Source: a virus. Taken from it: a DNA stretch of 64,000 nt. The notes under the pieces are model-generated. The model did not search any database, was not told the origin of the DNA, and saw nothing but the letters and a program-made list of their open reading frames with translations. The stretch is taken from IMG/VR virus record IMGVR_UViG_3300020274_000001, positions 76,337 to 140,336 of that record; one strand, 5' to 3'. Made by a program: the position numbers and the translations under genes. This document shows, piece by piece, positions 3 through 15,098 of the stretch; within the stretch, counting starts at the first letter, position 1, and each line of letters starts with the position of its first letter.

Positions 3-86
3 GTTGCAGACTTCCGTGGAAAAGATTGTGACGTTGTTCTTCCAGAAGTCGCCAATTCGCTTGGCAACATAACAGAAGAACGCTGA
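3..86 (+). CDS. C-terminal end of a hypothetical protein, truncated by the window edge
   Basis: Open frame VADFRGKDCDVVLPEVANSLGNITEER* ends at TGA 84-86, followed by the recurrent gene-end hairpin plus ATAG. Confidence 0.6.
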   Translation, partial: VADFRGKDCDVVLPEVANSLGNITEER

Positions 87-102
87 CGGCCTTACGGCCA
101 TA

Positions 103-159
103 GGAGAGGAGGGCTATGATAATAACCGATGACGATTGGGTCATGGTGCCATAATCTCC
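103..159 (+). ncRNA. Putative structured RNA cassette (long imperfect hairpin, not the dual-spacer type)
   Basis: GGAGA/TCTCC closing stem with inner GGC/GCC, TATGA/TCATG and CCGAT/ATTGG helices; preceded by ATA and followed by CCA-G-ATG. Confidence 0.45.
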
Positions 160-163
160 CCAG

Positions 164-658
164 ATGTCAAACGAAAGGATTGACCTTAATCAGTTTGAAG
201 CAATAACCAAAGGAAAATGGGAAGTGATTAACCTTCCCGGCGGAGGAATTGACATTGGCGTTAGATACACTAACCATGGACATAAGCCAATAGTCAACTT
301 CACCCAGCGCATGGGAGAGCAAGTCAGCAAAATCGAACGCGATGTTGCAGACATGAACGCTATTGCCGCAGTTCCCGAACTAATTGCTGAACTGAAAGAC
401 TTGAGGTGGAAACACATGCAAGTCCTAAGAGAGAGAAAAGACTTGCGAGACGAAGGTCTTCGCTTGGCTAAGAAACTTGATTCCGAACGAAATCGGATAG
501 AGACTCTTATCGACGCTTTGCGATTTATACGAGATGACTTGAACGAGGCAATCGCTCAAGGACATCTGCCAATCACATCTACGAATGGGATTGATGCTAC
601 GAAGATTCGTAACTTCGCAAACGGATGCTACACGTTGAGTAGCAACTCTCGGTCTTAA
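164..658 (+). CDS. Hypothetical protein with coiled coil
   Basis: 164-aa ORF; ATG directly after hairpin-CCA-G; AIAAVPELIAEL motif typical of small viral accessory proteins. Confidence 0.75.
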   Translation: MSNERIDLNQFEAITKGKWEVINLPGGGIDIGVRYTNHGHKPIVNFTQRMGEQVSKIERDVADMNAIAAVPELIAELKDLRWKHMQVLRERKDLRDEGLRLAKKLDSERNRIETLIDALRFIRDDLNEAIAQGHLPITSTNGIDATKIRNFANGCYTLSSNSRS

Positions 659-667
659 CGGCCATAG

Positions 668-850
668 ATGGACATAATGGGTATCATCATGTTAGTGCTA
701 ACATACACGCTGATAGGCTTCGGCTTTGCGTGTGGTTTCGCACTATTCCGTTGGGTTTCCGCCAAAAGAAAATCCAACAAAAAAAAGAAATCTGGTTCGA
801 CTGCTCCCCAAGAATCACAATGGGAGAGAATAAGAAACCGGATTCCTTAG
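668..850 (+). CDS. Small single-pass membrane protein
   Basis: Hydrophobic N-terminus then a Lys-rich segment; hairpin-ATA-G-ATG start. Confidence 0.75.
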   Translation: MDIMGIIMLVLTYTLIGFGFACGFALFRWVSAKRKSNKKKKSGSTAPQESQWERIRNRIP

Positions 851-864
851 AGCACTTGCTCATA

Positions 865-998
865 GGACGCTGAACCAAGGAAAACGAGGGCGCAAGCCCG
901 ATGACCTTGATTCGCAATCGCACGCTCGCGTCAAGAACGAGCGGCGACATAAAACGCAAAAATACACGCATTCGCGCTCACGTGCGATTGCGAATACA
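865..998 (+). ncRNA. Putative structured RNA with a 15-bp inverted repeat
   Basis: ATTCGCAATCGCACG (910-924) pairs with CGTGCGATTGCGAAT (981-995), followed by ACA-G; the region begins after a hairpin-ATA junction. Confidence 0.45.
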
Positions 999-2084
999 GT
1001 TGCAATGAAAAAAAAAGTGAAAGGAGAATATAGGTGCGGCACTCTGCGTGCTGACCAATTCTGCTTGCTGGGAACTGTTGGACAATGGTCCACACGGTCC
1101 GTGTGAAGCAGCACTGGAGGCGATGTATTATGGCTATCGAGCCATCATCGCTGACAAACATATTCTATCACAGATGGATACTTCCACTGGAAGTTCCGGA
1201 ATCATTGCCCAACCTTGCGTTCACTAATCTGAGGTCTGGGAAATATTTCCCCCGACCGGTCGACCGATGGAATTCTTCTTTACAGGTGTTCCATGGTGGC
1301 TAATTAGTGATGAAACATATTCTAACACGAATGTGCCCTCAGTAAGTAGAGACTACTCAACTTGCGTTGCAAGAAGATGTCAAATTTGACAAAAATCTTG
1401 GGACTGAAAATGAGAGAGCGCATTCAATACCCAATCACACCGCTACTCATTGCAGAGTAGTTCGGAGAAAACCCAGAGCAATCTGGAGTATACTCAGGGG
1501 ATTGGCGATAGAACATAGTCTAAGTCGTAATCCGTGCCTATGAGCACGAGATGCTGAAGAATAACCAGAATATTTTCTGGTCACCGACGAAAATTTTCGG
1601 AATTAACTGTCCGCATATGCGGACTGATTTACGAACGTAATTGGGACCAACATCCGCAATGGACGACGTCAGTCGTCAATATAAGGCTGATTTGGATGAG
1701 AAACATATTCTAAAGCATTTAAGTCTGGGTAAACCAGACCGGATACAGCCGAATAACAGCAGAAAATTCATATGAATTATTTTGCTATTCCAAAATCGAT
1801 ACGATATTTCTTGCTACCCTTATTGGGGATAAAGGAACGAAGGTGAGGACTCACCTCTTTCTCTACGTTAAAGTAGACAGAATATCTGACAAACATGTTC
1901 TAAGACAAATAAGGACTCTATCTGGATGCGGTTACGAAGTAATCGATTACCCGGGTAGAAACTCAGTTCGTGGTGTTGTCCAACTACCATACCAATGACT
2001 AACCACTTTTCCAAGTGGAGTTCCTCGTTGGGTGGTAGATGAGACACCGAATATGACCAAAGCGAATACGATGGAACGGTAGGG

Positions 2085-2906
2085 TTGACCCCCTTTACCG
2101 ATTTCCTCCTTGGGGAAAGGCGTCCCCAGAACCGAACCAATGCAAATGAAATGCATCTTGCCCGTATGGTTCACAGAATGGGATTTGAAATACACCCAGC
2201 AGGGAGACCAGACTACCAAGCCAAACTTACGGTTTGGGAATGGAGCCGGTTTCTCGACTTGCTTCTGCATTCGGCAGGAGCAATAAGCATGGAGCAGATG
2301 TTGAACAATATTGTTCATATCTCCATGATGGAGGCACAAGCACTTAATCACGGTAAGAGCGACGAAGAAATCGCTAACTTTGATGTGACTGAATACAAGA
2401 AAAATGTAGAAGTCGTAAAGAAGGCTGACCGTTCAAAAATGGAACTGATTGACGAAAATATGCCAGACGGCAGTAGAATGTTCATCGGTGCTAAATTGAT
2501 GCTGAAAAAAGGCACTCCAGAAAAAGCAATAGATTCAATGGTCGAAATGGTGGCCGTTTCTGTTGCTTGCTTCCAACATATGGAAGACAAGATGTTTGCG
2601 GCGAGGGAAACAGTCCCTTGCTTTCGAGCGTTTGGACAAAACGGACTGACGGTCAAAGGAGATGACATTTGGGCAATCTATGATTGCATGAATAACTTCT
2701 TTGGTAACGACGTTCCAGACCTATTGAGAATGATGGAATTTCCTAACAAGAAGAGAGTTATTCCTAAATTATCTGATAAAGACAGTAAAGCGTTTGTTGA
2801 ATTTATCAAGGAAAATATCCAACCGCACGACGTAGAAAATTGGCCCCGATTATTCGGAGTCATTTGTCAAGCACTTGGTGATGAGGATGACCTCATCATA
2901 TTGTAG
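2085..2906 (+). CDS. Hypothetical protein, start uncertain
   Basis: 273-aa ORF from TTG; ends at the GGCCAAAGGGCC-ATA junction. Confidence 0.7.
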   Translation: MTPFTDFLLGERRPQNRTNANEMHLARMVHRMGFEIHPAGRPDYQAKLTVWEWSRFLDLLLHSAGAISMEQMLNNIVHISMMEAQALNHGKSDEEIANFDVTEYKKNVEVVKKADRSKMELIDENMPDGSRMFIGAKLMLKKGTPEKAIDSMVEMVAVSVACFQHMEDKMFAARETVPCFRAFGQNGLTVKGDDIWAIYDCMNNFFGNDVPDLLRMMEFPNKKRVIPKLSDKDSKAFVEFIKENIQPHDVENWPRLFGVICQALGDEDDLIIL

Positions 2907-2920
2907 GCCAAAGGGCCATA

Positions 2921-2964
2921 GAACCGAACCATGGACGCTGTATTGTATATCCCCCGTGTGGTTC
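2921..2964 (+). ncRNA. Dual-spacer stem-loop unit (x1)
   Basis: GAACC-GAACCA-[TGGACGCT]-GTATTGTA-[TATCCCCC]-GTGT-GGTTC-ATA. Confidence 0.8.
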
Positions 2965-2968
2965 ATAG

Positions 2969-3292
2969 ATGTGGAATAATACTCCCATGGTAAAGGATGA
3001 TGGTCAACACATTATCCTAATTACCGGTGACGTCGAAGAAGACGAGGCCGGATGGATTGTGGCAGAAATGCCTTATCCAGATGAAGAGACGTTGCGTCTC
3101 GAACAACAGAAGAGAGCCATGATGATTAGTGGCCTACCTCTTGCTTACAAAGTCTTACAAGACATCAGAGAAGATGCACTTAGGATGATGGAAGGTAGTA
3201 GTGGACATTTTGCCCACCTCAATACCTTCGTGCTACAAGCAGAACGAGCCTTGGCATTCATGCCGTGGCTTGACGAGGAAAAGGAGGAATAA
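2969..3292 (+). CDS. Hypothetical protein
   Basis: 107-aa ORF starting at ATA-G-ATG and ending inside hairpin GGAGG/CCTCC. Confidence 0.8.
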   Translation: MWNNTPMVKDDGQHIILITGDVEEDEAGWIVAEMPYPDEETLRLEQQKRAMMISGLPLAYKVLQDIREDALRMMEGSSGHFAHLNTFVLQAERALAFMPWLDEEKEE

Positions 3293-3300
3293 CCTCCATA

Positions 3301-3345
3301 GAACCTAAACACAGACAAGGAAGTGCATTGAAGCATGAAAGGTTC
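3301..3345 (+). ncRNA. Dual-spacer stem-loop unit (x1)
   Basis: GAACC-TAAACA-[CAGACAAG]-GAAGTGCA-[TTGAAGCAT]-GAAA-GGTTC-ACA. Confidence 0.8.
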
Positions 3346-3349
3346 ACAG

Positions 3350-3631
3350 ATGGACGACAGTTTTGACGAACTGTATGATTTTCTTTTTCGAGACGCCGCC
3401 AATACACTTGGTAAACACGGAAGATTTGTTCCAAAGGTGTCTCAAAAAATGCAATCACTAAGCCCCATGTTAGGGGTTATAGCAATGTCAATGGCTCTTA
3501 TTGAAGAAGAAGACCAATACCGTGTTGGCTTCGGCAGAATGTTTGTCGTAGCCCACGCAACAGCATTGCAATTATCGACATTAATTACTATTGACTCAAT
3601 GGAATTATTGCTCGATGAAGCGGACAGATAG
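3350..3631 (+). CDS. Hypothetical protein
   Basis: Start moved to the ATG after ACA-G; the ORF-track start at 3335 lies inside the RNA unit. Confidence 0.7.
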   Translation: MDDSFDELYDFLFRDAANTLGKHGRFVPKVSQKMQSLSPMLGVIAMSMALIEEEDQYRVGFGRMFVVAHATALQLSTLITIDSMELLLDEADR

Positions 3632-3638
3632 TCCATAG

Positions 3639-4001
3639 ATGCAACCTACAATTGCAGAATACCTCACTATTAGGAGGTCAAGAGACAGGGAAATTAGTAG
3701 TCCCTATCTCTCAATGAACAACGACGGCGAAGTGCTATACAAGTATGCCATTAATGGCGACTTTTCTATCATTGAGCAAATGTGCCGCGATTTTGTAAAA
3801 GAATTATATGAAGATGATAATGGACCCGAATTGCTCCGTCTTTACGACACAGGAGTTAACTTCGTAGTGTATCATTTGATTCGAGCGTGGAACATATGGC
3901 ATGAGCGAACAGGCAACGTTAATCATAGCCTATCGGTCATGATGTTCGACAAAAAGAATGGCAAATGGATTGAAAACATTTGGTATACAAACCGGCTGTG
4001 A
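3639..4001 (+). CDS. Hypothetical protein
   Basis: 120-aa ORF; hairpin-ATA-G-ATG start. Confidence 0.75.
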   Translation: MQPTIAEYLTIRRSRDREISSPYLSMNNDGEVLYKYAINGDFSIIEQMCRDFVKELYEDDNGPELLRLYDTGVNFVVYHLIRAWNIWHERTGNVNHSLSVMMFDKKNGKWIENIWYTNRL

Positions 4002-4010
4002 TGGCCATAG

Positions 4011-4253
4011 ATGGGGACTGAAAGGTTCACACTACACCGACCCGGTGGACACCAAGAACAACATAACGTAAACTACGTTTCTGGTGAACTCTCACACGAC
4101 AACGGTGTTGCTTGCATCAATCTTTCAATGATTGGGCGAGGCTTTGAGGGGACTCTGAGAATAGGGTATGATGGCAATAAAATCATTATATTCCTAAAAG
4201 ATTCAGAGAAAGAATCTCACGTGATACACATGTATCCTAAAACCGAGGAATAA
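4011..4253 (+). CDS. Hypothetical protein
   Basis: 80-aa ORF; hairpin-ATA-G-ATG start. Confidence 0.7.
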   Translation: MGTERFTLHRPGGHQEQHNVNYVSGELSHDNGVACINLSMIGRGFEGTLRIGYDGNKIIIFLKDSEKESHVIHMYPKTEE

Positions 4254-4262
4254 TTCCTCATA

Positions 4263-4351
4263 GAGCAAAACATGGTGACTGAATTGCAGTTTAAAAGAAC
4301 GCTCATAGAACCGAACCAAGTCAGATGAATTGTAAAAACGTTGATTGGTTC
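4263..4351 (+). ncRNA. Dual-spacer stem-loop units (x2)
   Basis: GAGC unit [TGGTGACT]/[GTTTAAAA], ATA, GAACC unit [AGTCAGAT]/[AAAACGTT], ACA. Confidence 0.8.
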
Positions 4352-4355
4352 ACAG

Positions 4356-5567
4356 ATGAATTGGCGTGAAGAACACACGCAATGTCTACACCGTAAGAAA
4401 GACGGAACCCGTTGTCAACTTGACACGGCTCCCGGAGATTACGTGTGTGGACATCACACCATCGGTCTCGAAGACATCTTTGAGGACCCGATGGCAGTAG
4501 TCGCTAAATTCCGACTATACTTCCCGAAGAATCACCACCCAGCATGTGACAGGAAAGGACAGAACGATTGTGATTGTCCAGACCGCACATTTGGGGAACT
4601 TCTCGGGCTTGCCTACAAGCGAGCCGCAATCACCAGCCTGCAAAGGACAAGGTTGCACCGAGCAATGGTTCGAGCGGAAATGCGAGACAGGACTCGATTG
4701 ATTCGAGCCTATTACAACTCGATAACGGAAGACGACTTGTGGTTAGGAATGCCTAACCCCAAGTGGCGACAAATTCGATACTTCGTATGGAACGATAATG
4801 AGGAGCGAATGATAGTGAAGAAGCACGATAGAAGCATAAGAACAAAGAAACAATTGCTTGACCTGCTACGACGCGAAGCACCTCATCACGTTTACTACAC
4901 CACCTCACAATGGAGAAATCCAGCAGAGGTTGGTCCCGACCCGTTCTCTAAATCGGGTCGAGACAAATACATCAAGAAGAATGCAAAGAGACTTGCTAAG
5001 AAGGAAGGCTCGAAAGACAAAGGTCGTATCAAAGCATTGATGCATCCTGTGTCGAAGTGGTCAGATTATGGCAACGCATTCATTGAACAGGAACTCTATT
5101 TCGACGTTGATTACGAAATGGAAACTTTCCAAGAGTCAGCCGAAGAAACATTGAGGTTGGCTGAATTCTATGAGACCGTAGAATTTGCAGACTGTGAGAA
5201 AGACATACGATTTGTCTTCTCTGGTGGCAAAGGGTTTCACATGATTGATTACGGATTCAGTATCCGAAGAGCCGTTGGTGAGAAAAACTACGGCACGAGA
5301 ATCAAGAACATATTGGAAGGTGAAAAGGCAAGGAGTGGACTGATGAAAGGTCACGCCTTCGCCGCCATGAAGATAAGTCGTAACGTTAAGAAGCGACTCA
5401 TCAAGAAAATCAGAAAGAAAGGAATCCTACTTGATTACGAAGTGACCGTCGACCCTCGACGAATCATTCGACTACCCGGTTCAATACACGGAAAACGTGG
5501 ACGGGTTTGTAGATTGATAACCAAAGAGGACTTGACGGATTTCGACCCCGGACCTACCTTATGGTAA
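4356..5567 (+). CDS. Archaeo-eukaryotic primase (PriS-like) with Cys/His-rich N-terminal extension
   Basis: AEP motifs APHHVYYT, ELYFDVD, FSGGKGFH and DPRRIIRLPGSIHG; start after ACA-G. Confidence 0.85.
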   Translation: MNWREEHTQCLHRKKDGTRCQLDTAPGDYVCGHHTIGLEDIFEDPMAVVAKFRLYFPKNHHPACDRKGQNDCDCPDRTFGELLGLAYKRAAITSLQRTRLHRAMVRAEMRDRTRLIRAYYNSITEDDLWLGMPNPKWRQIRYFVWNDNEERMIVKKHDRSIRTKKQLLDLLRREAPHHVYYTTSQWRNPAEVGPDPFSKSGRDKYIKKNAKRLAKKEGSKDKGRIKALMHPVSKWSDYGNAFIEQELYFDVDYEMETFQESAEETLRLAEFYETVEFADCEKDIRFVFSGGKGFHMIDYGFSIRRAVGEKNYGTRIKNILEGEKARSGLMKGHAFAAMKISRNVKKRLIKKIRKKGILLDYEVTVDPRRIIRLPGSIHGKRGRVCRLITKEDLTDFDPGPTLW

Positions 5568-5579
5568 ATAGGTCATAGA

Positions 5580-6038
5580 ATGGTAAACATCTACACAGAT
5601 GGTGCCTGTATCAACAATGGACTACCAGATGCCAAAGGAGGCATGGGTGTGTTCAGTCAAGAAATGGACCTTGAGTTGTCCATACCGTGGGAGATGGAAG
5701 TCGAACCTACGAATCAAAGATGCGAAATGGGAGCAGTAGTATACGCTCTTATCGCAATCAAGAAGACTGAACCAAGTCAAGATACGGTTTTTCAGATTCT
5801 AAGTGATTCTGAATACGTTGTTAAAGGAATGAATGAATGGATGAAACAGTGGAAGAACCGTGGCTGGAAGACAGCCAAGGGAAAGGAAGTAAAAAACCGC
5901 TGGCTTTGGGAATTGCTTGATTCGCAATCCAAAGGACTCAACGTCATTTACAAACATGTTCGAGGACACTCTGGTGTTCTCGGCAACGAAAAAGCAGACT
6001 CGCTTGCGCTGTCTGCTGCTGAATCGTTAAAGTTGTGA
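5580..6038 (+). CDS. rnhA: Ribonuclease HI
   Basis: YTDGAC, TNQRCE, SDSEY, WKNRGWKT and HVRGHSG..GNEKAD motifs. Confidence 0.95.
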   Translation: MVNIYTDGACINNGLPDAKGGMGVFSQEMDLELSIPWEMEVEPTNQRCEMGAVVYALIAIKKTEPSQDTVFQILSDSEYVVKGMNEWMKQWKNRGWKTAKGKEVKNRWLWELLDSQSKGLNVIYKHVRGHSGVLGNEKADSLALSAAESLKL

Positions 6039-6077
6039 AACTTTGTTTAACAATGATTAAGGGCTTAATGTCCATAG

Positions 6078-8440: not shown

Positions 8441-8449
8441 AAGAGCATA

Positions 8450-8493: not shown

Positions 8494-8497
8494 ACAG

Positions 8498-8785: not shown

Positions 8786-8802
8786 GGTCATATTGACCAT
8801 AG

Positions 8803-8943: not shown

Positions 8944-8952
8944 TGCCTCATA

Positions 8953-8994: not shown

Positions 8995-8998
8995 ACAG

Positions 8999-9367: not shown

Positions 9368-9385
9368 GGAGGAATACCTCCATAG

Positions 9386-9967
9386 ATGGTGAAAAACACC
9401 TTCAAAATTGTGGCTGTCGTCAAAGAGGAAAACAAGCAATTGATTTGGGACCTCTTACAAATTGCACTAAAGCATGACGACATCTATTTTGCATTTGAGG
9501 AAGGCAAGCCCTCCGAAATAATGCATAAACCAGCCGACATCAAAAAACTGTCGAAAAAGAAGAAGAAACCGGAGAAACCTACTCTATCAAGAAAGGAAGT
9601 ATCCAAGTTGACCAAAGAAAGCATGAAGAAACTCAAAGCAGAGAAACGTGTTTTCACTGGAGCAGTATTCGGTTGGGATAATCAAAAAGATGGCACAATG
9701 AAGCCAAACTGGAAAGAACAAGAAACCATAGACATGATGCGATACTTTTACTACGAAAAGAAGCAATCATTCTCTTTTATTGCGAAGTGGCTCAATGCCA
9801 ACGACGTAAAGGGAAAGCGTGGTGGAAAGTGGCAAAGTTCGGGAGTATCAAGAGTCGTTCACAACGACTTCCATGCTTCTCGAAATGACTTCAAGAAACC
9901 TAAGTGGTTTTTGAAGAAGACCTATCCAGAAATGACATGGGGTAAGAACCCAAAAATCGTCTCGTAA
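9386..9967 (+). CDS. Protein with a serine-recombinase-type DNA-binding (Recombinase) domain and no catalytic domain
   Basis: GAVFGW...MKPNWKEQE...SFSFIAKWLN...GGKWQSSGVSRVVHN. Confidence 0.7.
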   Translation: MVKNTFKIVAVVKEENKQLIWDLLQIALKHDDIYFAFEEGKPSEIMHKPADIKKLSKKKKKPEKPTLSRKEVSKLTKESMKKLKAEKRVFTGAVFGWDNQKDGTMKPNWKEQETIDMMRYFYYEKKQSFSFIAKWLNANDVKGKRGGKWQSSGVSRVVHNDFHASRNDFKKPKWFLKKTYPEMTWGKNPKIVS

Positions 9968-9975
9968 GGGACATA

Positions 9976-10066
9976 GAGCAAAACAAGTCGTGGGTATTGC
10001 ACATATTCCATGTATGCTCATAGAACTGAATCAATAAGGTTGTATTGCAATTGGCCAAAAAGGTTC
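9976..10066 (+). ncRNA. Dual-spacer stem-loop units (x2)
   Basis: GAGC unit [AGTCGTGG]/[CATATTCCAT]; GAACT/GGTTC unit [ATAAGGTT]/[ATTGGCCA]. Confidence 0.8.
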
Positions 10067-10070
10067 ACAG

Positions 10071-10298
10071 ATGGATGTTAAAGAACTACATCAATATGTC
10101 TCGCAACTGCGAGAATACATTGTGACGCTTGAGCGTCGCATTGCTACACTTGAAAAACAAGTGAATCCGCCACAGACCAAGGACCTTGGTAACGGGCGGA
10201 GAACGTTCACACGTTCAGGTATCAACAACCTGCTCGACGGAATGATTGGGAGGCACCGAAAGGACCCCGTCACCGGAGAGTGGCACAAAGTGAATTAG
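10071..10298 (+). CDS. Small coiled-coil protein
   Basis: 75-aa ORF after ACA-G. Confidence 0.75.
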   Translation: MDVKELHQYVSQLREYIVTLERRIATLEKQVNPPQTKDLGNGRRTFTRSGINNLLDGMIGRHRKDPVTGEWHKVN

Positions 10299-10312
10299 GC
10301 CAATAGGCCATA

Positions 10313-10356
10313 GAACCTAAACACAAGAAGGGAATTACATGAGCCCCGAATGGTTC
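10313..10356 (+). ncRNA. Dual-spacer stem-loop unit (x1)
   Basis: GAACC-TAAACA-[CAAGAAGG]-GAATTACA-[TGAGCCCC]-GAAT-GGTTC-ACA. Confidence 0.8.
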
Positions 10357-10360
10357 ACAG

Positions 10361-10876
10361 ATGTCTGTAAAAGAATACGTGCAGATACGTGCTGACCAAT
10401 ACAAACAGCATGACAACGTCTGGGGGGATTTACCCCGAGATGCGCCAATTAGATTGGCTGATATCTTTGAATGGATATTACAGAATGGACAAACCTTTAG
10501 CGGGACCAATATGGATGCCGCTGATGAAATTGTCGAGCATTCTTTTCGTGCACCAGAAATAAAGGCGTGCTACCATAATGCGTTTTTAGTCCCCCCAGAA
10601 GTAAGATACTTCGAGGGATGGTGGGCAGGAATTATTCCTGTCGAACATGCGTGGAATGTCGTAGACGACAAAGTCGCTGATGTAACGCTCACTATTGAGC
10701 AACATCGTGAACGAGCGTTGAGAGACAGACAAGAATACTTTGGAATTGAAATTCCAAGGGATTGGATGTGGAAGCAAGTAAGTAAAGGAACACACTTTAG
10801 GCCAGAAGGCTCGAGTGGTCCTTTCATCTACGACTACGTTATGGAGCAAATCGCAAAAGAACGAGAAGAGGAATAA
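10361..10876 (+). CDS. Papain/transglutaminase-like fold protein
   Basis: Cys-His-Asp pattern: KACYHNA...YFEG...EHAWNV...VADVT. Confidence 0.6.
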   Translation: MSVKEYVQIRADQYKQHDNVWGDLPRDAPIRLADIFEWILQNGQTFSGTNMDAADEIVEHSFRAPEIKACYHNAFLVPPEVRYFEGWWAGIIPVEHAWNVVDDKVADVTLTIEQHRERALRDRQEYFGIEIPRDWMWKQVSKGTHFRPEGSSGPFIYDYVMEQIAKEREEE

Positions 10877-10885
10877 TTCCTCATA

Positions 10886-10974
10886 GAGCAAAACATGATA
10901 CCAGCATTACAGCCAATCCGAATGCTCATAGAACCGAATCAAGTTTCACGTATGGCAAGTTCGTCGTATGGTTC
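10886..10974 (+). ncRNA. Dual-spacer stem-loop units (x2)
   Basis: [TGATACCA]/[GCCAATCC] and [AGTTTCAC]/[AGTTCGTC]. Confidence 0.8.
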
Positions 10975-10978
10975 ACAG

Positions 10979-11395
10979 ATGGCATTAACATGTCCAGATT
11001 GCGGTCAAGAGACCGCTTATGTGCGTGTCGGCATTTACGTCGACCCACATGACACAAGTGTCGAGGCCCTGTCTGAACAGGTCAGCGACATCATAGGCAC
11101 AGGACCGGAAGACTTCGACGACGAACTTCCTACGGTCTGTGCAGAGTGCGAATGCCAAGTCCCATACAGACTTGCATTTGCCGCCACTGTAAGAAAGCAG
11201 GCTCACAAGAATGACGAAGAAGCGGCAATGGCTTACCGTCATGCGCTTGCTGGAGTTGTCCATTTCTTTGGACGCCTACCAATCGCCGAAAATGAGGCTT
11301 GGACAGAGGACCAGCATGAAGCCTATGAAGCAACACACCGTTTGTTCGCTGTTCTTGATGAACCCGAACAAGACGAAACCTCGGAAGAGGAATGA
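10979..11395 (+). CDS. Zinc-ribbon-containing protein
   Basis: CPDCG...CAEC; start after ACA-G. Confidence 0.75.
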   Translation: MALTCPDCGQETAYVRVGIYVDPHDTSVEALSEQVSDIIGTGPEDFDDELPTVCAECECQVPYRLAFAATVRKQAHKNDEEAAMAYRHALAGVVHFFGRLPIAENEAWTEDQHEAYEATHRLFAVLDEPEQDETSEEE

Positions 11396-11412
11396 CGGCC
11401 TTACGGCCATAG

Positions 11413-11574
11413 ATGGCATGGAAAGATGACATTTGGAGATTGGCTAATCAGTTAAATCTCGAGTATAAGCGTGATATGTGGTCTCCCGTTCACGCTTTTA
11501 ATGCAATCGTAGCAGAACTTGAACGTCTTCGTGATGAAGACCTTTCAGACTGTTACATTACACCCGATAGTTAA
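11413..11574 (+). CDS. 53-aa protein missing from the ORF track
   Basis: MAWKDDIWRLANQLNLEYKRD...ITPDS*, flanked by hairpin-ATAG junctions. Confidence 0.7.
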   Translation: MAWKDDIWRLANQLNLEYKRDMWSPVHAFNAIVAELERLRDEDLSDCYITPDS

Positions 11575-11596
11575 TCGGTCGGCCCTGCGGCCATAG

Positions 11597-12238
11597 ATGA
11601 AGACAAACATCAACATCCAACTCGAAGGCGAAGAAGCCCTCGAGGTTATACGGGCTTTGCTTGGAAACCCAAGTAAGTCTGTCAAGGTAGAAGTTCTACC
11701 AGACGATACACAAACGACAGAAAGTCGTAAAATGACAGAAGAACCAGACAACACTCGACATTGCACAAGATGTGGAGTGAAATTAGAATCTTCTGTAAAT
11801 ATCAAAACAGGTAGATTTATTCGAAGAGAATTTGTCTGCAATGGTTGTTATTCTGGAAGCAGAAAGGGCAAGAAGGTGAACCGAACAGGTTCCAATCACT
11901 GTCGTAAATGCGGAGTAGAATTGACAACAGATAATTGGCAGAGTAAACGAAGTTATATCTGCACATCTTGTAAAGTCAAAAAATCGGATGACCACGTTAC
12001 TATCACGGCTGAACAGCGAACCCAGTGGGCTCGTGAACGTCGTGAAATCATAGGCGGCAAAATCACACAAGTAGGAACCTTCCAAGGTGCGCTCATCGTA
12101 GAGCATATCCGAGGAACACACTACAAGATACAACTCCCAAGCGGAGCAGTGATTGACGCCAAGCACAAGAAGCAGAAGACCCTTGGTGGGGACGAACTCG
12201 GTGCTGGTTGGAGTAAGTGGGAGAAACGGTCTGGATAG
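11597..12238 (+). CDS. Protein with two C4 zinc fingers
   Basis: HCTRCG..VCNGC and HCRKCG..ICTSC. Confidence 0.75.
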   Translation: MKTNINIQLEGEEALEVIRALLGNPSKSVKVEVLPDDTQTTESRKMTEEPDNTRHCTRCGVKLESSVNIKTGRFIRREFVCNGCYSGSRKGKKVNRTGSNHCRKCGVELTTDNWQSKRSYICTSCKVKKSDDHVTITAEQRTQWARERREIIGGKITQVGTFQGALIVEHIRGTHYKIQLPSGAVIDAKHKKQKTLGGDELGAGWSKWEKRSG

Positions 12239-12244
12239 ACCATA

Positions 12245-12332
12245 GAGCAAACAAGCCATCCGAAATATACAAAATGTGAAGGCTCATAGAACCCAATCAA
12301 GTGATTTGAAATACAGGAAATTTGAATGGTTC
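12245..12332 (+). ncRNA. Dual-spacer stem-loop units (x2)
   Basis: [AGCCATCC]/[CAAAATGT] and [AGTGATTT]/[GGAAATTT]. Confidence 0.8.
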
Positions 12333-12337
12333 ACAGA

Positions 12338-12997
12338 ATGCCTAATTGGGCTTACAACAATATGACCGTTGAGTCAGACGGAAGCGAAACAGGTGATGAA
12401 CAATTGCGCTGTTTCGTTAATGTCGCTATCACTGAAGATAGCGAATTGACTTTTAGCGGTCACTTACCTATGCCGAAAGAACTCGACATAGGCAATGCTC
12501 CCTTTGCTGGAATAAAGGATGATGAATCTCTGCTCGAGGCGTTAGCCAAGATAGAGAATCCAGAAACGCCGGAGTTTACAAAGGGGAACTTACTAAAACA
12601 AATCAAGATGTATCAGAACAAGAAAGAATTCGGATACTCTTCTTGGTATGACTGGAACTGTGCCAAGTGGGGGACAAAGTGGGATGCTTCGCAATCCAAT
12701 GTCTCCTCTTTCGGAAATAGTGTTCAAATCAGTTTCAATACTGCTTGGGACCTACCGAGAGGTTGGCTTTTTCATATAATGAACTTAGCAGAATGCTCAC
12801 ACCTGCGAATACGCCTTGTGTGTGAAGCAGAAGGTGAAGCAGTTATACTGGACTCCAATGGAAAGGAAGTCCCGTATGAAGAAAATGTAGACGGACAATG
12901 GTTTCACCATGCCGAATATGTTGAGAAAGAGCCTAATGGTAAAATCAGTCATTACAATAAAACCGCCGAACAACGGTGGAAAGACGGAGAATTTTAA
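12338..12997 (+). CDS. DUF1281/YubB ferredoxin-like family protein
   Basis: MPNWAYN...WYDWNCAKWGTKWD...FNTAW signature. Confidence 0.75.
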   Translation: MPNWAYNNMTVESDGSETGDEQLRCFVNVAITEDSELTFSGHLPMPKELDIGNAPFAGIKDDESLLEALAKIENPETPEFTKGNLLKQIKMYQNKKEFGYSSWYDWNCAKWGTKWDASQSNVSSFGNSVQISFNTAWDLPRGWLFHIMNLAECSHLRIRLVCEAEGEAVILDSNGKEVPYEENVDGQWFHHAEYVEKEPNGKISHYNKTAEQRWKDGEF

Positions 12998-13005
12998 TCT
13001 CCATA

Positions 13006-13094
13006 GAGCGAATCATTCAGCCTGTATTGCACAGCCTAAGAACGCTCATAGAACCGAACCATCATTGAGGAATTACAAAACACCAGAATGGTTC
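13006..13094 (+). ncRNA. Dual-spacer stem-loop units (x2)
   Basis: [TTCAGCCT]/[CAGCCTAA] and [TCATTGAG]/[AAACACCA]. Confidence 0.8.
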
Positions 13095-13098
13095 ACAG

Positions 13099-13479
13099 AT
13101 GTCAGAAATTATTCATGACAGCCACGTTGAGTTAGAGAGTCTATCTCGACGATACATTGAGGAGCAAAGAGCCCTCAAGCAAGCGAAGGATTCAGTAGAA
13201 TCCATCAAAAAGGATATACAGAAAATCCTTGGGAGTTCACGTTTTGTGGAAACCCAGCACTTCACCGTAGAGGTGAAGGAAGTGGAACAGAAGAGAATGA
13301 TGAGTAAAGACGATTTTATTCGCAAACATTCTCCACCAATGAAGGATTCACAAGGCAACGTCATGCTGAATCCAGACAACGAACCAATCCTTGACACTGC
13401 TGTTGGAGCGAAATTCTACAACGAACATCTTGTAGAGCGTCCTTCCAACAGATTCTATGTGAAGAAAAAACCGGTCTGA
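13099..13479 (+). CDS. Hypothetical protein (coiled coil plus beta hairpin)
   Basis: 126-aa ORF; resembles 14449-14832. Confidence 0.75.
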   Translation: MSEIIHDSHVELESLSRRYIEEQRALKQAKDSVESIKKDIQKILGSSRFVETQHFTVEVKEVEQKRMMSKDDFIRKHSPPMKDSQGNVMLNPDNEPILDTAVGAKFYNEHLVERPSNRFYVKKKPV

Positions 13480-13489
13480 AAGGACCATA

Positions 13490-13579
13490 GAGCAAAAACA
13501 TCGTCTCTGAAATGCACAAGAAAGGAATGCTCATAGAACCAAATCAAGCATGCTGAATTGCAGGTGATTCGTAAGGTTC
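13490..13579 (+). ncRNA. Dual-spacer stem-loop units (x2)
   Basis: [TCGTCTCT]/[CAAGAAAG] and [AGCATGCT]/[GGTGATTC]. Confidence 0.8.
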
Positions 13580-13585
13580 ACAGAA

Positions 13586-14233
13586 ATGCGTTATTTCAAA
13601 AATTATGACGACGCTTGGAGTTATCTCCAAAGAGGTCGAAACATCGAGAAGGGGAGACCTATCGGTGCGCACACCAGAATTTACAAACGTAAAGATGGAA
13701 CAATAGCAATCAGATATCACAGCACTGATATTGTTCGCTATTACAAGCATAAGAACGGAAAGCAATGGATGTCATTTGACAACGAGGGATGGACCTCCAC
13801 GACAACATTGCAAAGACTGCATTACGTCATGCCCAATGGCATAGGCGTCGATACGAGTCTAAACCGATTCATAGGACAGTGGTTTACCAGATGTAACGGT
13901 GAATTATACAACCTAAACCATCACGTAAAATTCGATGAAAATCTTAACGTAAAAAACAAGAAACAGATGTCTCTGAAAACGATGGACAATATCAGTGATG
14001 CTGGGACAAGAATAAGAAAATTGTTAGCATCATCATTGAGTTCAATTGAAAGAGATGTTTCAAAGAAGAGGCAAGAAAATGCCGAACTCTCCTACGAGAG
14101 AATTCAACTTCGTGGCGAAATAATGGCTTTCGAAGAAATGAGAGAAACACTTCGTGGAGAAGTAGGATACTTGTTGAAACTAAAGAAGGGCGACACCGAT
14201 AATGGTGCAAAAGACGTCCTCAACAGGGTGTAA
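13586..14233 (+). CDS. Hypothetical protein with C-terminal coiled coil
   Basis: 215-aa ORF after ACA-GAA. Confidence 0.75.
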   Translation: MRYFKNYDDAWSYLQRGRNIEKGRPIGAHTRIYKRKDGTIAIRYHSTDIVRYYKHKNGKQWMSFDNEGWTSTTTLQRLHYVMPNGIGVDTSLNRFIGQWFTRCNGELYNLNHHVKFDENLNVKNKKQMSLKTMDNISDAGTRIRKLLASSLSSIERDVSKKRQENAELSYERIQLRGEIMAFEEMRETLRGEVGYLLKLKKGDTDNGAKDVLNRV

Positions 14234-14241
14234 TGCCCATA

Positions 14242-14444
14242 GAGCGAAACATCGAACCCGAATTACATTGAACCCGTAATTCGCTCATAGAGCGATAGGT
14301 CATAGGACTAAACCATAACAAAAGAAATACAAGAGGTCTGAAAAGTCCATAGAGCAAACAACAACGAAGAACTGTATACAATTAGAATGCTCATAGAACC
14401 GAACCACACCAAATATGCCGAATTACAGGGTGGCAGAATGGTTC
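14242..14444 (+). ncRNA. Dual-spacer stem-loop units (x4, plus one empty mini-hairpin)
   Basis: [TCGAACCC]/[TTGAACCC]; GGACT/AGTCC unit [TAACAAAA]/[AGAGGTCT]; [ACAACGAA]/[TACAATTA]; [(CACCA)AATATGCC]/[GGGTGGCA]. Confidence 0.8.
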
Positions 14445-14448
14445 ACAG

Positions 14449-14832
14449 ATGTCAGACGACATACAATACGTCATGGCCAGAATTAAGGCCATGGAAGATG
14501 TGAGAAAGAATCTCGCATCTGCGATAAAGAAAGACAAAGAATATGTCAGAGAAACAATGGGTGAAAGGGAAGTCTTGGAGACCCCAGCCTTCACTGCAAA
14601 GATTGTTACTCGGACTTCAACACGATTGTTGGGGATAGAACATATTCGTAACCTATTAGGGTCGACAACCGTGGATAAAATCACGAAGACGTCGGAATCT
14701 AAGTCGCTGTCAATCAAAGAAACGTTGGCTAATTTTGAACCGTTCGAAGTCGAAGACCTCGAATTAGTTCCAGATTGGGCCAAGTCTGCCGCTATTACGC
14801 TACAAGTGAGGGAATTACTTGGCGAGAATTAG
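14449..14832 (+). CDS. Hypothetical protein
   Basis: 127-aa ORF after ACA-G; resembles 13099-13479. Confidence 0.75.
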   Translation: MSDDIQYVMARIKAMEDVRKNLASAIKKDKEYVRETMGEREVLETPAFTAKIVTRTSTRLLGIEHIRNLLGSTTVDKITKTSESKSLSIKETLANFEPFEVEDLELVPDWAKSAAITLQVRELLGEN

Positions 14833-15091
14833 GCGAGCATCGGACAGATATCATACTCAAATCGAAACGATATTGAGAGAAAAAGGTCCGCTTGTTGCTT
14901 ATGACATCCGTCAAGCAATGGTTGGGCGTTGGAAAAACGTCCCTACTCCGAATCAACTCGGAAACCTATTAGCGAAAAACAAGAACATTAAATCATTAGG
15001 ACCGGGACACAAAAAATCGTTCTCGGCTCTACTCGATGGTTCTGGCACAGGAGGTGTAAACCTCTGGGCTTTGGTTGAACAAGGGGATTGA
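14819..15091 (+). CDS. Small winged-helix-like DNA-binding protein
   Basis: GPLVAYDIRQAM...PTPNQLGNLL; TTG start with GTGAGG upstream. Confidence 0.6.
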   Translation: MARIRRASDRYHTQIETILREKGPLVAYDIRQAMVGRWKNVPTPNQLGNLLAKNKNIKSLGPGHKKSFSALLDGSGTGGVNLWALVEQGD

Positions 15092-15098
15092 CCCCATA

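What the first reader, a model, noticed from the sequence alone, without database searches (positions are those of the whole stretch)
84..15098. Hairpin-AUA-G-AUG punctuation: genes use the same junction signal as the guide units
Seen in sequence: about 29 genes end in or just before a 4-7 bp hairpin that opens with G and closes with C, followed by ATA (rarely CCA) and G. That G is either the first base of a guide unit or the base before the next ATG. Examples: GGCC-TTAC-GGCC 88-99, GGAC-AGATA-GTCC 3622-3634, GAGGAAT-A-ATTCCTC 4245-4259, GGGC-TTAAT-GTCC 6061-6073, GTCTC-GTAA-GGGAC 9959-9972. The hairpin sequences differ but pairing is kept, including G-U pairs. Most of these genes have no Shine-Dalgarno, unlike the late genes. 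Inference: one long transcript is cut at stem-NNA sites by a single nuclease, releasing both guides and nearly leaderless (G-AUG) mRNAs, so guide maturation would double as an mRNA-processing code.
Basis: partly seen in the sequence, partly recalled or inferred. Interest (0 to 1): 0.85.

Follow-up and report, generated by a model that had tools for sequence, protein, structure and literature searches.

The report
Hairpin-AYA-G gene punctuation, archaeal virus
In a 45-kb one-strand block of a marine, probably archaeal, virus nearly every gene and every small guide RNA ends in a short hairpin plus A-U/C-A, and RNA ends found in seawater samples begin exactly at the next G, so the virus most likely chops long transcripts into leaderless messages and guide RNAs with one shared signal.

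Summary
The window is the last 64 kb of a complete 140,336-nt virus genome. On the + strand of genome ~46.9-91.6 kb, 39 of 43 ORFs of 100 aa or more end in a G...C hairpin followed by NNA|G. Elsewhere in the genome it is 5 of 75. In the window it is 29 of 32 genes.

The G is followed at once by ATG or by a 45/47-nt unit. These units fit stem-loop tigRNAs, and the genome encodes a Tas protein (NF052498, E 1e-43). Block genes lack Shine-Dalgarno motifs (6/43 against 39/75).

Pairing looks RNA-level: G.U outnumbers A.C 38 to 12, and compensatory changes occur in relatives. No promoter-like motif precedes 204 such starts.

Metatranscriptome contigs start exactly at the junction G at 5 of 13 left ends (P about 1e-9). 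Fifty-eight related marine contigs carry the same code and differ by whole modules inserted at A|G.

Cleavage rather than initiation is likely but unproven, and the nuclease is unknown. This scan noted similar hairpin-plus-motif punctuation on other marine archaeal elements (unchecked here).

The parts
1..15282 (+). Window part of the punctuated one-strand block (whole block: genome ~46.9-91.6 kb; the window starts at genome 76337)
88..102 (+). gene-end hairpin GGCC-ttac-GGCC + ATA; next G (103) starts a 60-nt module
103..162 (+). 60-nt module closed by GGAGA/TCTCC + CCA; next G then ATG 164; absent in relative L089
651..666 (+). gene-end hairpin + ATA; G-ATG 668
850..864 (+). gene-end hairpin + ATA; RNA contig starts at G865
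2129..2175 (+). A unit (47 nt) + ACA; RNA contig starts at G2176; ATG 2178
2906..2920 (+). gene-end hairpin + ATA
2921..2967 (+). A unit, ends ATA; G-ATG 2969
3283..3300 (+). gene-end hairpin + ATA
3301..3348 (+). A unit + ACA; G-ATG 3350
3622..3637 (+). gene-end hairpin + ATA; G-ATG 3639
3994..4009 (+). gene-end hairpin (G.U pair) + ATA; G-ATG 4011
4245..4262 (+). gene-end hairpin, stop codon in the loop, + ATA
4263..4307 (+). B unit (45 nt) + ATA
4308..4354 (+). A unit + ACA; G-ATG 4356 (AEP primase)
5551..5577 (+). gene-end hairpin (6 bp, 12-nt loop) + ATA; G-A-ATG 5580 (RNase HI)
6061..6076 (+). gene-end hairpin (G.U) + ATA; G-ATG 6078
6756..6771 (+). gene-end hairpin + ATA; RNA contig starts at G6772; ATG 6773
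7238..7252 (+). gene-end hairpin + ATA
7253..7299 (+). A unit + ACA; G-ATG 7301; unit absent in relatives L175, L071 and in a contig of DNA run X4
7472..7485 (+). gene-end hairpin + ATA
7486..7532 (+). A unit + ACA; G-ATG 7534
7852..7868 (+). gene-end hairpin + ATA
7869..7917 (+). A-like unit with covarying stem GAATC/GATTC + ACA; followed by an AT-rich stretch
8180..8196 (+). hairpin + CCA; G-ATG 8198
8431..8449 (+). gene-end hairpin + ATA
8450..8496 (+). A unit + ACA; G-ATG 8498; unit absent in L136
8786..8801 (+). gene-end hairpin + ATA; G-ATG 8803
8933..8952 (+). gene-end hairpin + ATA
8953..8997 (+). B unit, ends ACA; G-ATG 8999
9368..9384 (+). gene-end hairpin + ATA; G-ATG 9386; L143 has a whole extra gene+hairpin here
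9959..9975 (+). gene-end hairpin (two G.U pairs) + ATA
9976..10022 (+). B unit + ATA
10023..10069 (+). A unit + ACA; G-ATG 10071
10298..10312 (+). gene-end hairpin + ATA
10313..10359 (+). A unit + ACA; G-ATG 10361
10868..10885 (+). gene-end hairpin + ATA
10886..10930 (+). B unit + ATA
10931..10977 (+). A unit + ACA; G-ATG 10979
11397..11411 (+). gene-end hairpin + ATA; G-ATG 11413
11577..11595 (+). gene-end hairpin + ATA; G-ATG 11597
12228..12244 (+). gene-end hairpin + ATA
12245..12288 (+). B unit + ATA
12289..12335 (+). A unit + ACA; G-A-ATG 12338
12986..13005 (+). gene-end hairpin + ATA
13006..13050 (+). B unit + ATA
13051..13097 (+). A unit + ACA; G-ATG 13099
13473..13489 (+). gene-end hairpin + ATA
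13490..13535 (+). B unit + ATA
13536..13582 (+). A unit + ACA; RNA contigs of two runs start at G13583; ATG 13586
14226..14241 (+). gene-end hairpin + ATA
14242..14447 (+). run of four units (B 14242-14289, GGACT-type 14305-14351, B 14352-14395, A 14396-14447) with a 15-nt piece ending ATA between the first two; G-ATG 14449
15083..15098 (+). gene-end hairpin + ATA
15099..15190 (+). last B unit (15099-15143) and A unit (15144-15190)
15238..15282 (+). strong hairpin followed by U9: terminator-like end of the block
   Evidence: z -3.47

Best explanation
The block is transcribed as one or a few long RNAs. Candidate promoters are three identical 30-nt repeats at the 5' side of the block, and a hairpin+U9 terminator sits at window ~15240-15282. 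The RNA is then cut endonucleolytically three nucleotides 3' of any short helix that opens with G and closes with C, between the A of A-U/C-A and the following G.

Every module, whether 'gene plus its terminal hairpin' or a 45/47-nt stem-loop tigRNA-like guide unit, therefore starts with G and ends in stem+AYA. The cut gives mRNAs with a one-base leader (G-AUG) that are translated as leaderless mRNAs, with a 3' hairpin. The same cut frees the guide units for the virus's Tas protein.

Shown: the signal, its strand specificity, its RNA-type pairing, the lack of SD and of promoter motifs, ATG-only starts, RNA 5' ends at the G, and the modular evolution at A|G.

Inferred: that the ends arise by cleavage, that the precursor is long, that one enzyme does it, and that it is a host RNase. 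No nuclease candidate was found in the virus.
For: (1) Recurrence far above chance and on one strand only.

(2) RNA-level pairing. Among 283 distinct hairpins with at most one internal non-Watson-Crick pair there are 38 G.U/U.G against 12 A.C/C.A (binomial 3e-4). On the opposite strand there are only 32 hairpins.

(3) Structure is kept in evolution. At 51 gene-end junctions with 122 variant homologues, 104 of 122 still have a hairpin+NNA|G. Changed stem positions stay paired in 49 of 89 cases (11 double compensatory), against 38 of 125 (0 double) with the partner slid by one. Chance hairpins inside coding sequence (13253, 13718, 13840) are broken in relatives.

(4) No information above 0.2 bit at -60..-19 before 204 distinct hairpin-AYA-G-ATG starts, so there is no BRE/TATA per gene. 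Genome 64.2-91.5 kb has almost no non-coding DNA apart from hairpins and units.

(5) Leaderless signature. SD core in 6/43 block genes against 39/75 others. Of 932 distinct junctions the triplet after G is ATG in 335, while GTG and TTG are not among the 20 commonest (each 4 or fewer). The two window genes without a junction (6413, 14819) have TTG starts behind GGAGG/GAGGG.

(6) RNA ends. In two metatranscriptome runs from the sample that also holds the DNA, 5 of 13 listed contig left ends lie exactly on the junction G (865, 2176, 6772, 13583 twice). 0 of 13 right ends lie at a junction (P about 1e-9, or about 1e-7 for 4 of 12 distinct ends).

(7) The hairpins are too weak (-5 to -7 kcal/mol, z -0.3 to -1.1) and lack U-tracts, so they are recognition marks rather than terminators. 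A 3' end three nt behind a stem cannot come from hairpin-driven termination, because the RNA-DNA hybrid is 8-9 bp (established knowledge).

(8) -1 is always A, against the usual pyrimidine(-1)/purine(+1) start rule of multisubunit RNAPs (recalled knowledge).

(9) Any module can follow any other. 60 of 176 homologous junction/relative pairs differ by 30 nt or more. The pairs I read in the listing differ by 0-3 units or a whole gene+hairpin inserted at A|G.

(10) The units fit stem-loop tigRNAs and a Tas gene is present. For such RNAs, processing at a 3-nt motif at the stem base by an unknown, probably host, RNase is reported (Xu et al. 2026 preprint, sections read).
Against: The RNA evidence is from contigs of two runs of one sample and one study. 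Contigs carry no 5' chemistry and no strand, so a primary start at G is not excluded.

No contig ends at the A before the cut (0 of 13), so the 3' product is unseen.

No unit-sized RNA can be seen in contigs.

Contigs of a third RNA run (oligo-dT, relatives at 85-99% identity) bridge junctions (for example 10665-11137 across three junctions). This may be precursor, but equally DNA carry-over.

The virus encodes its own Rpb1-like RNAP subunit, which could use unorthodox signals.

No nuclease was found: 0 hits for Beta-Casp, Lactamase_B_2 and RNase III in the genome. Among 37 block proteins scanned with Pfam, besides RNase HI, none showed a nuclease fold.

The one archaeal enzyme I checked in print, aCPSF1, cuts C|A, not A|G.

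17 of 86 predicted block genes lack the end hairpin and 24 of 86 lack a junction-coupled start. Many of these are doubtful small ORFs in non-coding stretches.
Confidence: 0.68

Rival explanations
1. Stop-start transcription by the virus's own RNA polymerase. Each G is a primary start, and the stem+AYA in front of it is a promoter or terminator element read in single-stranded DNA or nascent RNA (compare the hairpin promoters of phage N4 and the 'hairpin rule' for mimivirus transcript 3' ends, both recalled). Every gene and unit is then its own short transcript.
For: The genome encodes a 1664-aa Rpb1-like subunit. RNA 5' ends at G fit a start as well as a cut. The signal is strictly strand-specific. 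G is a common initiating nucleotide.
Against: Nothing is conserved upstream except a helix of free sequence. The favoured G.U pairs point to RNA. 45-nt units would each need initiation and termination within 3 nt. -1 is always A (recalled start-site rule). Hairpin-driven termination cannot leave only 3 nt behind the stem. Unit-size stems with about 35-nt loops and 4-bp hairpins would have to act as the same promoter.
Confidence: 0.12
2. The hairpin+AYA|G marks are mainly DNA-level (single-strand) recombination sites that delimit mobile cassettes, as attC sites do in integrons. RNA ends at the same place are secondary.
For: Relatives differ by whole modules inserted or lost exactly at A|G, including complete gene+hairpin cassettes and 0-3 units (DNA run X4). 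Identical hairpins recur at several gene ends (GAGGC-ttgat-GCCTC three times). Strand-specific folding with G.T pairs is also possible in single-stranded DNA. ORF 9386-9967 has a weak 'Recombinase' domain match (24.8 bits).
Against: It does not explain the fixed G-ATG spacing, ATG-only starts, lack of SD, or the RNA contig starts at G. No integrase was recognised among 37 block proteins. The hairpins are 11-19 nt, far smaller than attC sites. Module shuffling can follow from recombination between the repeated junction letters without being their purpose. The two readings are not exclusive.
Confidence: 0.1
3. No cutting at all. The hairpins are 3'-end stabilisers or translation-coupling devices inside uncut polycistronic RNA, and the units are trimmed out by exonucleases up to protein-protected stems, as proposed for archaeal C/D box sRNAs (recalled from Tripp et al. 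2017, cited in the reference list read).
For: The stop codon often lies in the hairpin loop and the next ATG is 5-20 nt away, a layout that could support termination-reinitiation. Oligo-dT run contigs bridge junctions.
Against: RNA contigs start exactly at G at four junctions. Up to four units (about 200 nt) can separate stop and start (14242-14447). 4-bp stems are poor exonuclease blocks. Exonucleolytic release of units would destroy the neighbouring mRNAs.
Confidence: 0.07

Closest known systems
Stem-loop TIGR-Tas arrays (Faure et al. 2025, PMC12045711, passages read; Xu et al. 2026 bioRxiv 10.64898/2026.09.09.750476, outline, sections 7, 10, 11 and passages read)
   Same: A Tas protein is present (NF052498, 149.8 bits). 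The units have two 8-nt variable segments, each between a ...CA (box C-like) and a G (box D-like), a 8-nt conserved loop, and a closing palindromic stem. The block ends with a degenerate unit and a hairpin-U terminator. Published stem-loop tigRNAs are processed at a 3-nt motif at the stem base by an unidentified, probably host, RNase.
   Different: Here only 3 of 42 units lie beside tas. The others sit singly or in runs of 1-4 between about 60 protein genes over 38 kb. The linker is just 3 nt, or a whole gene. The boundary motif is AYA|G, not CUU. The same boundary is also carried by guide-less 11-19-nt hairpins at gene ends. Targets and guide activity were not examined.
tRNA punctuation of animal mitochondrial transcripts (recalled: Ojala, Montoya and Attardi 1981; RNase P and RNase Z)
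   Same: A long polycistronic RNA would be cut at structured RNA elements between genes, giving mRNAs with no or almost no 5' leader. The excised elements are functional small RNAs.
   Different: No tRNAs are present (0 in the window and in 10 related loci). The determinant lies upstream of the cut and is a 4-8 bp helix plus 3 nt. Most marks are bare hairpins with no other role.
RNase III processing of phage T7 early polycistronic mRNA (recalled: Dunn and Studier)
   Same: Viral early genes would be released from a long transcript by cuts at intergenic hairpins, which remain as 3' ends.
   Different: T7 has five sites with long imperfect duplexes and keeps SD-led translation. Here there are more than 150 sites with 4-8 bp stems and a cut 3 nt outside the helix. 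No RNase III gene is in the virus, and the products are leaderless.
Other marine archaeal virus-like elements noted by this scan (e1-5354649: hairpin + TAYTAG touching ATG over 39 kb; e1-1063336: about 90 genes each starting with one heptamer)
   Same: One-strand trains of small genes, each preceded by a short shared boundary mark touching the start codon, read as leaderless-mRNA punctuation.
   Different: They are on other DNA with other motifs. No guide units were reported there. I did not see or test those sequences (AI notes).

Membership tests
Stem-loop TIGR-Tas system (for the guide units) | Tas protein with the Nop-type RNA-binding domain | tested here: met
   P0001 (genome 52046-53083): NCBIfam NF052498 TIGR_Tas_endo, E 1e-43, 149.8 bits against cut-off 100, profile 1-214/215. 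Best PDB sequence match 9mty_A, an IS110 C-terminal-domain protein, E 9.8e-5. No Pfam family at E 0.01 or below.
Stem-loop TIGR-Tas system (for the guide units) | Units with two short spacers, each flanked by box C upstream and box D downstream, closed by a stem | tested here: met
   195 distinct 47-nt and 100 distinct 45-nt units. Invariant stem arms...YCA, 8 variable nt, G-AAUUG-CA, 8 variable nt, G-AAU, stem arm. The definition is taken from Faure 2025. Box letters differ (CA/G here).
Stem-loop TIGR-Tas system (for the guide units) | Units in tandem arrays adjacent to tas | tested here: not met
   3 units at genome 53471-53608, about 390 nt after tas. The other 39 of 42 are dispersed between genes up to 38 kb away.
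Stem-loop TIGR-Tas system (for the guide units) | Processing into unit-size RNAs bound by Tas | tested here: inconclusive
   RNA contigs begin right after A units at 2176 and 13583. Unit-size RNAs cannot be seen in contigs. Binding is not testable here.
tRNA punctuation (mitochondrial type) | tRNA genes at gene borders | tested here: not met
   ARAGORN found 0 tRNAs in the window and 0 in 10 loci of the block and relatives. No Rfam family at gathering score.
tRNA punctuation (mitochondrial type) | Cleavage by RNase P and RNase Z | not testable with these tools
   The host is unknown. No Lactamase_B_2 (RNase Z fold) in the virus.
RNase III intercistronic processing (T7 type) | Long (about 20 bp) duplex cut within the helix | tested here: not met
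   Stems are 4 bp (221), 5 bp (264), 6-8 bp (69). RNA ends lie 3 nt outside the helix. No RNase III domain in the genome.
Intrinsic (hairpin + U-tract) terminator at each gene | U-run directly after the hairpin | tested here: not met
   The tail is A-U/C-A-G followed by AUG or a unit. A hairpin+U9 occurs only at 15238-15282.
Canonical archaeal promoter in front of every gene | BRE/TATA element about 25-35 nt upstream of the start | tested here: not met
   204 distinct sites: information 0.2 bit or less at every position from -60 to -19.
Integron-type gene cassettes | attC-like site (57-141 nt imperfect palindrome) and a neighbouring integrase | tested here: not met
   Hairpins are 11-19 nt. 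No integrase among the block proteins scanned, only a weak Recombinase-domain match in 9386-9967. Cassette-like whole-module differences at the boundary are seen.

The most novel reading that the evidence does not exclude
The whole 45-kb early block is in effect one giant TIGR-type array whose 'linkers' have become genes. A single structure-specific RNase, probably a conserved host enzyme and the same unknown one that matures stem-loop tigRNAs, reads 'G-closed helix + AYA' more than 150 times per transcript. It thereby releases about 60 leaderless mRNAs and about 42 guide RNAs at once. Because each module is self-sufficient for expression once flanked by this mark, genes and guides behave as freely exchangeable cassettes. 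This would explain the module-by-module differences between relatives. It would be a viral counterpart of mitochondrial tRNA punctuation built on guide RNAs, and it would give the processing signal for stem-loop tigRNAs in nature.
Probability: 0.35. Interest if true: 0.9.

Novelty: new variant of a known kind. Interest (0 to 1): 0.8.

Why it matters
Two papers on TIGR-Tas leave two points open. One is which enzyme and which signal mature stem-loop tigRNAs. The other is whether their ends are processed or primary (Faure 2025 discussion; Xu 2026 discussion).

This virus lineage offers a natural data set of hundreds of sites: 932 distinct junctions in the genome plus 58 marine contigs. The data set defines the signal precisely as a G...C-closed helix of 4 bp or more, then A-Y-A, then G. 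It also shows that guide-less hairpins share the signal, so it cannot depend on Tas binding. First environmental RNA evidence places 5' ends exactly at the G.

The finding also describes a gene-expression strategy not reported for archaeal viruses in the library I searched. In it, leaderless mRNAs are made by punctuation rather than by one promoter per gene.

Finally, it explains how such viruses can swap genes and guides as cassettes.

The strategy is directly testable with a 1-kb construct.

Tried and rejected
Rfam at gathering thresholds on the whole window gave no family. ARAGORN found no tRNA.

Searches for relatives:
- IMG/VR pattern scans for the unit gave 56 and 6 single matches with wrong spacing. 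I treated these as chance.
- The genome-contig scan gave 18 single matches in unrelated bacterial MAGs, also chance, so there is no host clue.
- A protein-based search with the AEP primase found one distant relative (L057, 42% identity). It lacks the signal (2 CATAG on + against 11 on -) and has a different intergenic motif. The code is therefore lineage-specific.

Search for a nuclease:
- Pfam on 37 block proteins (10, of which nine lie in the block, 10, 10, 10, two of which, window 10979-11395 and 13099-13479, lie inside ORFs not scanned before) and on the operon upstream gave RNase HI twice and nothing else nuclease-like.
- The HD protein next to tas is a SpoT/RelA-type hydrolase.
- Beta-Casp, Lactamase_B_2 and RNase III families have 0 matches in the complete genome.
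- aCPSF1 was considered as the host enzyme, by analogy with the stem-loop-dependent 3' processing of histone mRNAs (recalled). It is not supported: the Pyrococcus enzyme cuts C|A (passages read).
- RNase P was rejected because the determinant lies upstream of the cut and mRNA 5' parts have no helix.
- The splicing endonuclease was rejected because the two 3-nt single strands lie at the same end of the helix, not across a 4-bp helix (my reading of the geometry).

The sigma-70/terminator scan was uninformative. Promoter-like hits were at shuffle level (29 against 26.6). Many '- strand terminators' were the gene-end hairpins read backwards.

The generic hairpin enumeration was too permissive to be useful, apart from ATAG being the top tail.

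Oligo-dT RNA run X20 covered 27 of 30 bins but cannot be told from DNA carry-over. Parts without cover in X21 and X23 mean nothing. Supplements of the papers were not opened, and TIGRFinder tables could list this lineage.

Literature searches for a prior description found none. Of I saw only the listings.

Full report
**What the DNA is.** The window is the last 64 kb (76337-140336) of a single 140,336-nt virus record with direct terminal repeats, rated complete.
- It encodes an MCM helicase, two AEP primases and RNase HI in the window.
- Upstream it encodes a 1664-aa Rpb1-like RNA polymerase subunit.
- Outside the block, genes carry GGAGG/GGUGA-type Shine-Dalgarno motifs.
- I therefore read the host as a prokaryote, and from the replication and transcription genes most likely an archaeon. 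This is an inference.
- The DNA and close relatives occur in marine metagenomes of 12 studies.

**The observation.**
- The signal runs through a one-strand block at genome ~46.9-91.6 kb. The window holds its last 15.3 kb.
- In the window, 29 of 32 predicted genes end in or just before a G...C hairpin followed by NNA|G. 27 of 31 have their ATG 0-2 nt behind a junction G.
- For the whole block the figures are 69 of 86 and 62 of 86.
- Controls:
  - 81 hairpin+(ATA|ACA|CCA)G sites on the + strand of genome 40001-91600, against 11.9 +/- 3.2 in 100 dinucleotide shuffles and 14 on the other strand.
  - 39 of 43 block ORFs of 100 aa or more carry the end signal, against 5 of 75 elsewhere in the genome (P 4e-21).
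  - 77 of 89 CATAG in the block are preceded by a stem, against 20 of 50 on the opposite strand.

**What the G leads into.** There are 42 units of 44-52 nt in the genome, 27 of them in the window. The three other rows of that listing are two chance hits and a 60-nt module.
- There are two main classes. A units are 47 nt, with stem GAACC/GGUUC and tail ACA. B units are 45 nt, with stem GAGC/GCUC and tail AUA.
- Over 195 and 100 distinct copies from this genome and relatives, the anatomy is: stem arm...YCA, 8 variable nt, G-AAUUG-CA, 8 variable nt, G-AAU, stem arm, AYA.
- This is the layout of stem-loop tigRNAs: two short spacers, each between a box C and a box D, closed by a palindrome (Faure et al. 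2025; passages).
I tested it. The 345-aa protein at genome 52046-53083 matches NCBIfam NF052498 'TIGR-Tas system RNA-guided endonuclease' at E 1e-43, 149.8 bits (cut-off 100), over the whole profile.
- Unlike published arrays, only three units lie next to tas. The rest are scattered between genes.
- The usual order is gene, hairpin-AUA|G, B-AUA|G, A-ACA|G, AUG. Any of the middle pieces may be missing.

- 58 contigs (301,556 nt) hold two or more units.
- In these plus the block there are 377 distinct A[TC]AGATG sites on the sense strand and 34 on the other. A stem ends exactly before the A in 331 of 377 against 8 of 34.
- 405 distinct small hairpin+ATA|G sites lead into G-ATG (117), G-N1-3-ATG (32), an A unit (113), a B unit (96) or something else (47).
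- IMG/VR and the species-genome collection gave only chance single hits.
- A distant relative found through the primase lacks the signal.

**Is the helix real, and at which level?**
- The hairpin sequences differ freely (GGCC, GAGGAA, GGTCT, GTCTC, GCTCT and others) but pair.
- Among 283 distinct sense-strand hairpins allowing one internal mismatch, 207 are perfect. 38 have G.U/U.G, 12 have A.C/C.A and 26 have other mismatches. The opposite strand has 32 hairpins in all.
- Transitions create G.U and A.C equally, so 38 against 12 (P 3e-4) points to selection on the sense strand as a single strand. That is most simply RNA.
- At 51 gene-end junctions with 122 variant homologues, 104 still show a hairpin+NNA|G.
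- Changed stem positions remain paired in 49 of 89 cases, 11 by double compensatory change. With the partner slid by one it is 38 of 125 and 0 double.
- Chance hairpins inside coding sequence are broken in relatives.
- The small hairpins are thermodynamically weak. They look like recognition marks, not exonuclease blocks or terminators.

**Start or cut?**
- Against a promoter per gene:
  - In 204 distinct hairpin-AYA-G-ATG sites no position from -60 to -19 carries more than 0.2 bit.
  - Genome 64.2-91.5 kb has almost no non-coding DNA outside hairpins and units.
- For a long transcript:
  - Three identical 30-nt repeats containing a TATA-like ATATAAT lie at genome 46463, 47800 and 55553, at the 5' side of the block.
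  - A strong hairpin with U9 closes the block at window 15238-15282.
- For leaderless translation:
  - The SD core is present in 6 of 43 block genes against 39 of 75 others.
  - ATG follows the G at 335 of 932 distinct junctions, while GTG and TTG are not among the 20 commonest triplets.
  - The two window genes without a junction have TTG starts behind GGAGG/GAGGG.
- Direct RNA evidence:
  - It comes from contigs of two metatranscriptome runs, X21 and X23. They are from the same sample as the best DNA holder and from one study.
  - 13 contigs are listed. Their left ends are 865, 1329, 2176, 4627, 4888, 5156, 6772, 13583 and 1009, 1329, 5696, 12000, 13583.
  - Five of these (865, 2176, 6772, 13583 twice) are exactly the G behind AUA/ACA. 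None of the 13 right ends lies at a junction.
  - With about 58-80 junctions in 15.3 kb this has P about 1e-9 to 5e-9. For four of twelve distinct ends it is 1e-7 to 4e-7.
  - The one-sidedness argues against an assembly artefact at repeats or palindromes.
  - Contigs cannot tell a primary from a processed end.
  - Contigs of an oligo-dT run (X20; relatives at 85-99% identity) bridge junctions, which may be precursor RNA or DNA.
- My reasons to prefer cleavage:
  - The only shared upstream feature is an RNA-type helix of free sequence.
  - Units of 45 nt would otherwise each need initiation and termination within 3 nt.
  - An RNA 3' end three nt behind a helix cannot arise by hairpin-induced termination.
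  - -1 is invariably A (recalled start-site rule).

**Modular evolution.**
- Of 176 pairs of a homologous gene junction and a relative, 60 differ in length by 30 nt or more.
- In those I read, the difference is 0-3 whole units or a whole gene with its own hairpin, inserted exactly between A and G. Examples are at own coordinates -7273, -313, 658 and 9367. The A unit 7253-7299 is missing in L175 and L071, and in a contig of DNA run X4.
- Each module, from G to stem+AYA, is thus a unit of evolution. This fits an expression system in which a module needs nothing from its neighbours.
- A DNA-level cassette mechanism remains a possible second role.

**The nuclease.** None was found.
- Pfam scans of 37 block proteins, plus NCBIfam on seven of them, showed RNase HI and a SpoT-type hydrolase but no endoribonuclease.
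- Beta-Casp, Lactamase_B_2 and RNase III are absent from the complete genome.
- aCPSF1 cuts C|A rather than A|G.
- For stem-loop tigRNAs the literature reports processing at a trinucleotide (CUU) at the stem base, absence of the Tas Y/H catalytic loop, and maturation in E. coli. It concludes that a conserved host RNase is likely, and that primary versus processed ends are unresolved.
- The bare hairpins here show that the signal does not need box C/D or spacers.

**Comparison and novelty.**
- The kind of mechanism, punctuation of polycistronic RNA at structured elements, is known from mitochondria and phage T7 (recalled). Stem-loop TIGR arrays are also known.
- What I found nowhere in the searchable library is the following combination:
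  - guide units dispersed through a 45-kb gene train;
  - a shared helix+AYA|G boundary also borne by guide-less hairpins;
  - G-AUG leaderless genes as the rule;
  - module-wise exchange at the boundary.
- Earlier notes of this scan describe hairpin-plus-hexamer and heptamer punctuation in other marine archaeal virus-like elements. I did not test those. They suggest a wider habit of such viruses.

**Verdict.**
- The best explanation is endonucleolytic punctuation at helix-AYA|G giving leaderless mRNAs and tigRNA-like guides, with confidence about 0.68.
- It is a new variant of a known kind, with interest 0.8.

Noticed in passing
window 865-2128: A 1.26-kb stretch without a convincing gene, bounded by AUA|G (865) and CCA|G (2129). 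It has the highest RNA-contig depth in the region (33 and 8.9 in X21). It holds four copies of a 12-nt word (AAACATATTCTA or one mismatch) at 1156, 1313, 1701 and 1891. A second cluster of four lies at genome 61241-62113. RNA contigs of two runs start at 1329, five nt behind one copy. This is probably a structured ncRNA or several.
   Followed up: partly
window 103-162: A 60-nt module closed by GGAGA/TCTCC + CCA|G. It contains GGAGG followed by a 12-codon mini-ORF. The whole module is absent at the same junction in relative L089.
   Followed up: partly
genome 46463, 47800, 55553 (before the window): Three identical 30-nt repeats with a TATA-like ATATAAT, each behind an ACATATGT palindrome, at the 5' side of the block. 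They are candidate promoters with operators.
   Followed up: partly
genome 47-59 kb versus 59-91.5 kb: There are two dialects of the mark. Early in the block the hairpins have AAU/UAU triloops and tail ACA (or CCA). Later they have 4-5-nt loops and tail AUA. This may reflect two temporal classes or two origins.
   Followed up: no
window 6413 and 14819: The two window genes that lack a junction overlap the previous gene, start with TTG and have GGAGG/GAGGG 6-9 nt upstream. SD-led initiation seems to be used exactly where no cut is made.
   Followed up: partly
gene-end hairpins, e.g. 4245-4259, 10868-10882, 3283-3297: The stop codon often lies in the hairpin loop (loops TAA, AATAA, TTGA, GTAA and others), so the 5' arm encodes the last residues of the protein. 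The base before the hairpin G is C in 62% and A in 30% of 491 sites, which hints at a second boundary on the 5' side of the hairpin.
   Followed up: no
L117 and L093 (relatives), junction homologous to genome ~54058: An extra module of about 90 nt with a long terminal stem, bounded by ACA|G on both sides. It is neither a guide unit nor a tRNA.
   Followed up: partly
window 7918-7952: An AT-rich stretch (with TATAAAT-like letters) directly after an A-like unit. It is the only promoter-like gap in the window part of the block.
   Followed up: no
genome 51360-52013 (before the window): The gene just upstream of tas encodes a 217-aa SpoT/RelA-type HD hydrolase (small alarmone hydrolase-like).
   Followed up: yes
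L057 (IMG/VR contig, 42% identical primase): This distant relative has no hairpin-AYA-G code. It repeats GGCAATCGTG followed some bases later by CCAATG in front of several genes, a different boundary motif.
   Followed up: partly
window 15191-15237: After the last A unit comes a degenerate unit with a decayed 3' arm, and then the terminator. Published TIGR arrays likewise end with a truncated repeat and a terminator.
   Followed up: partly
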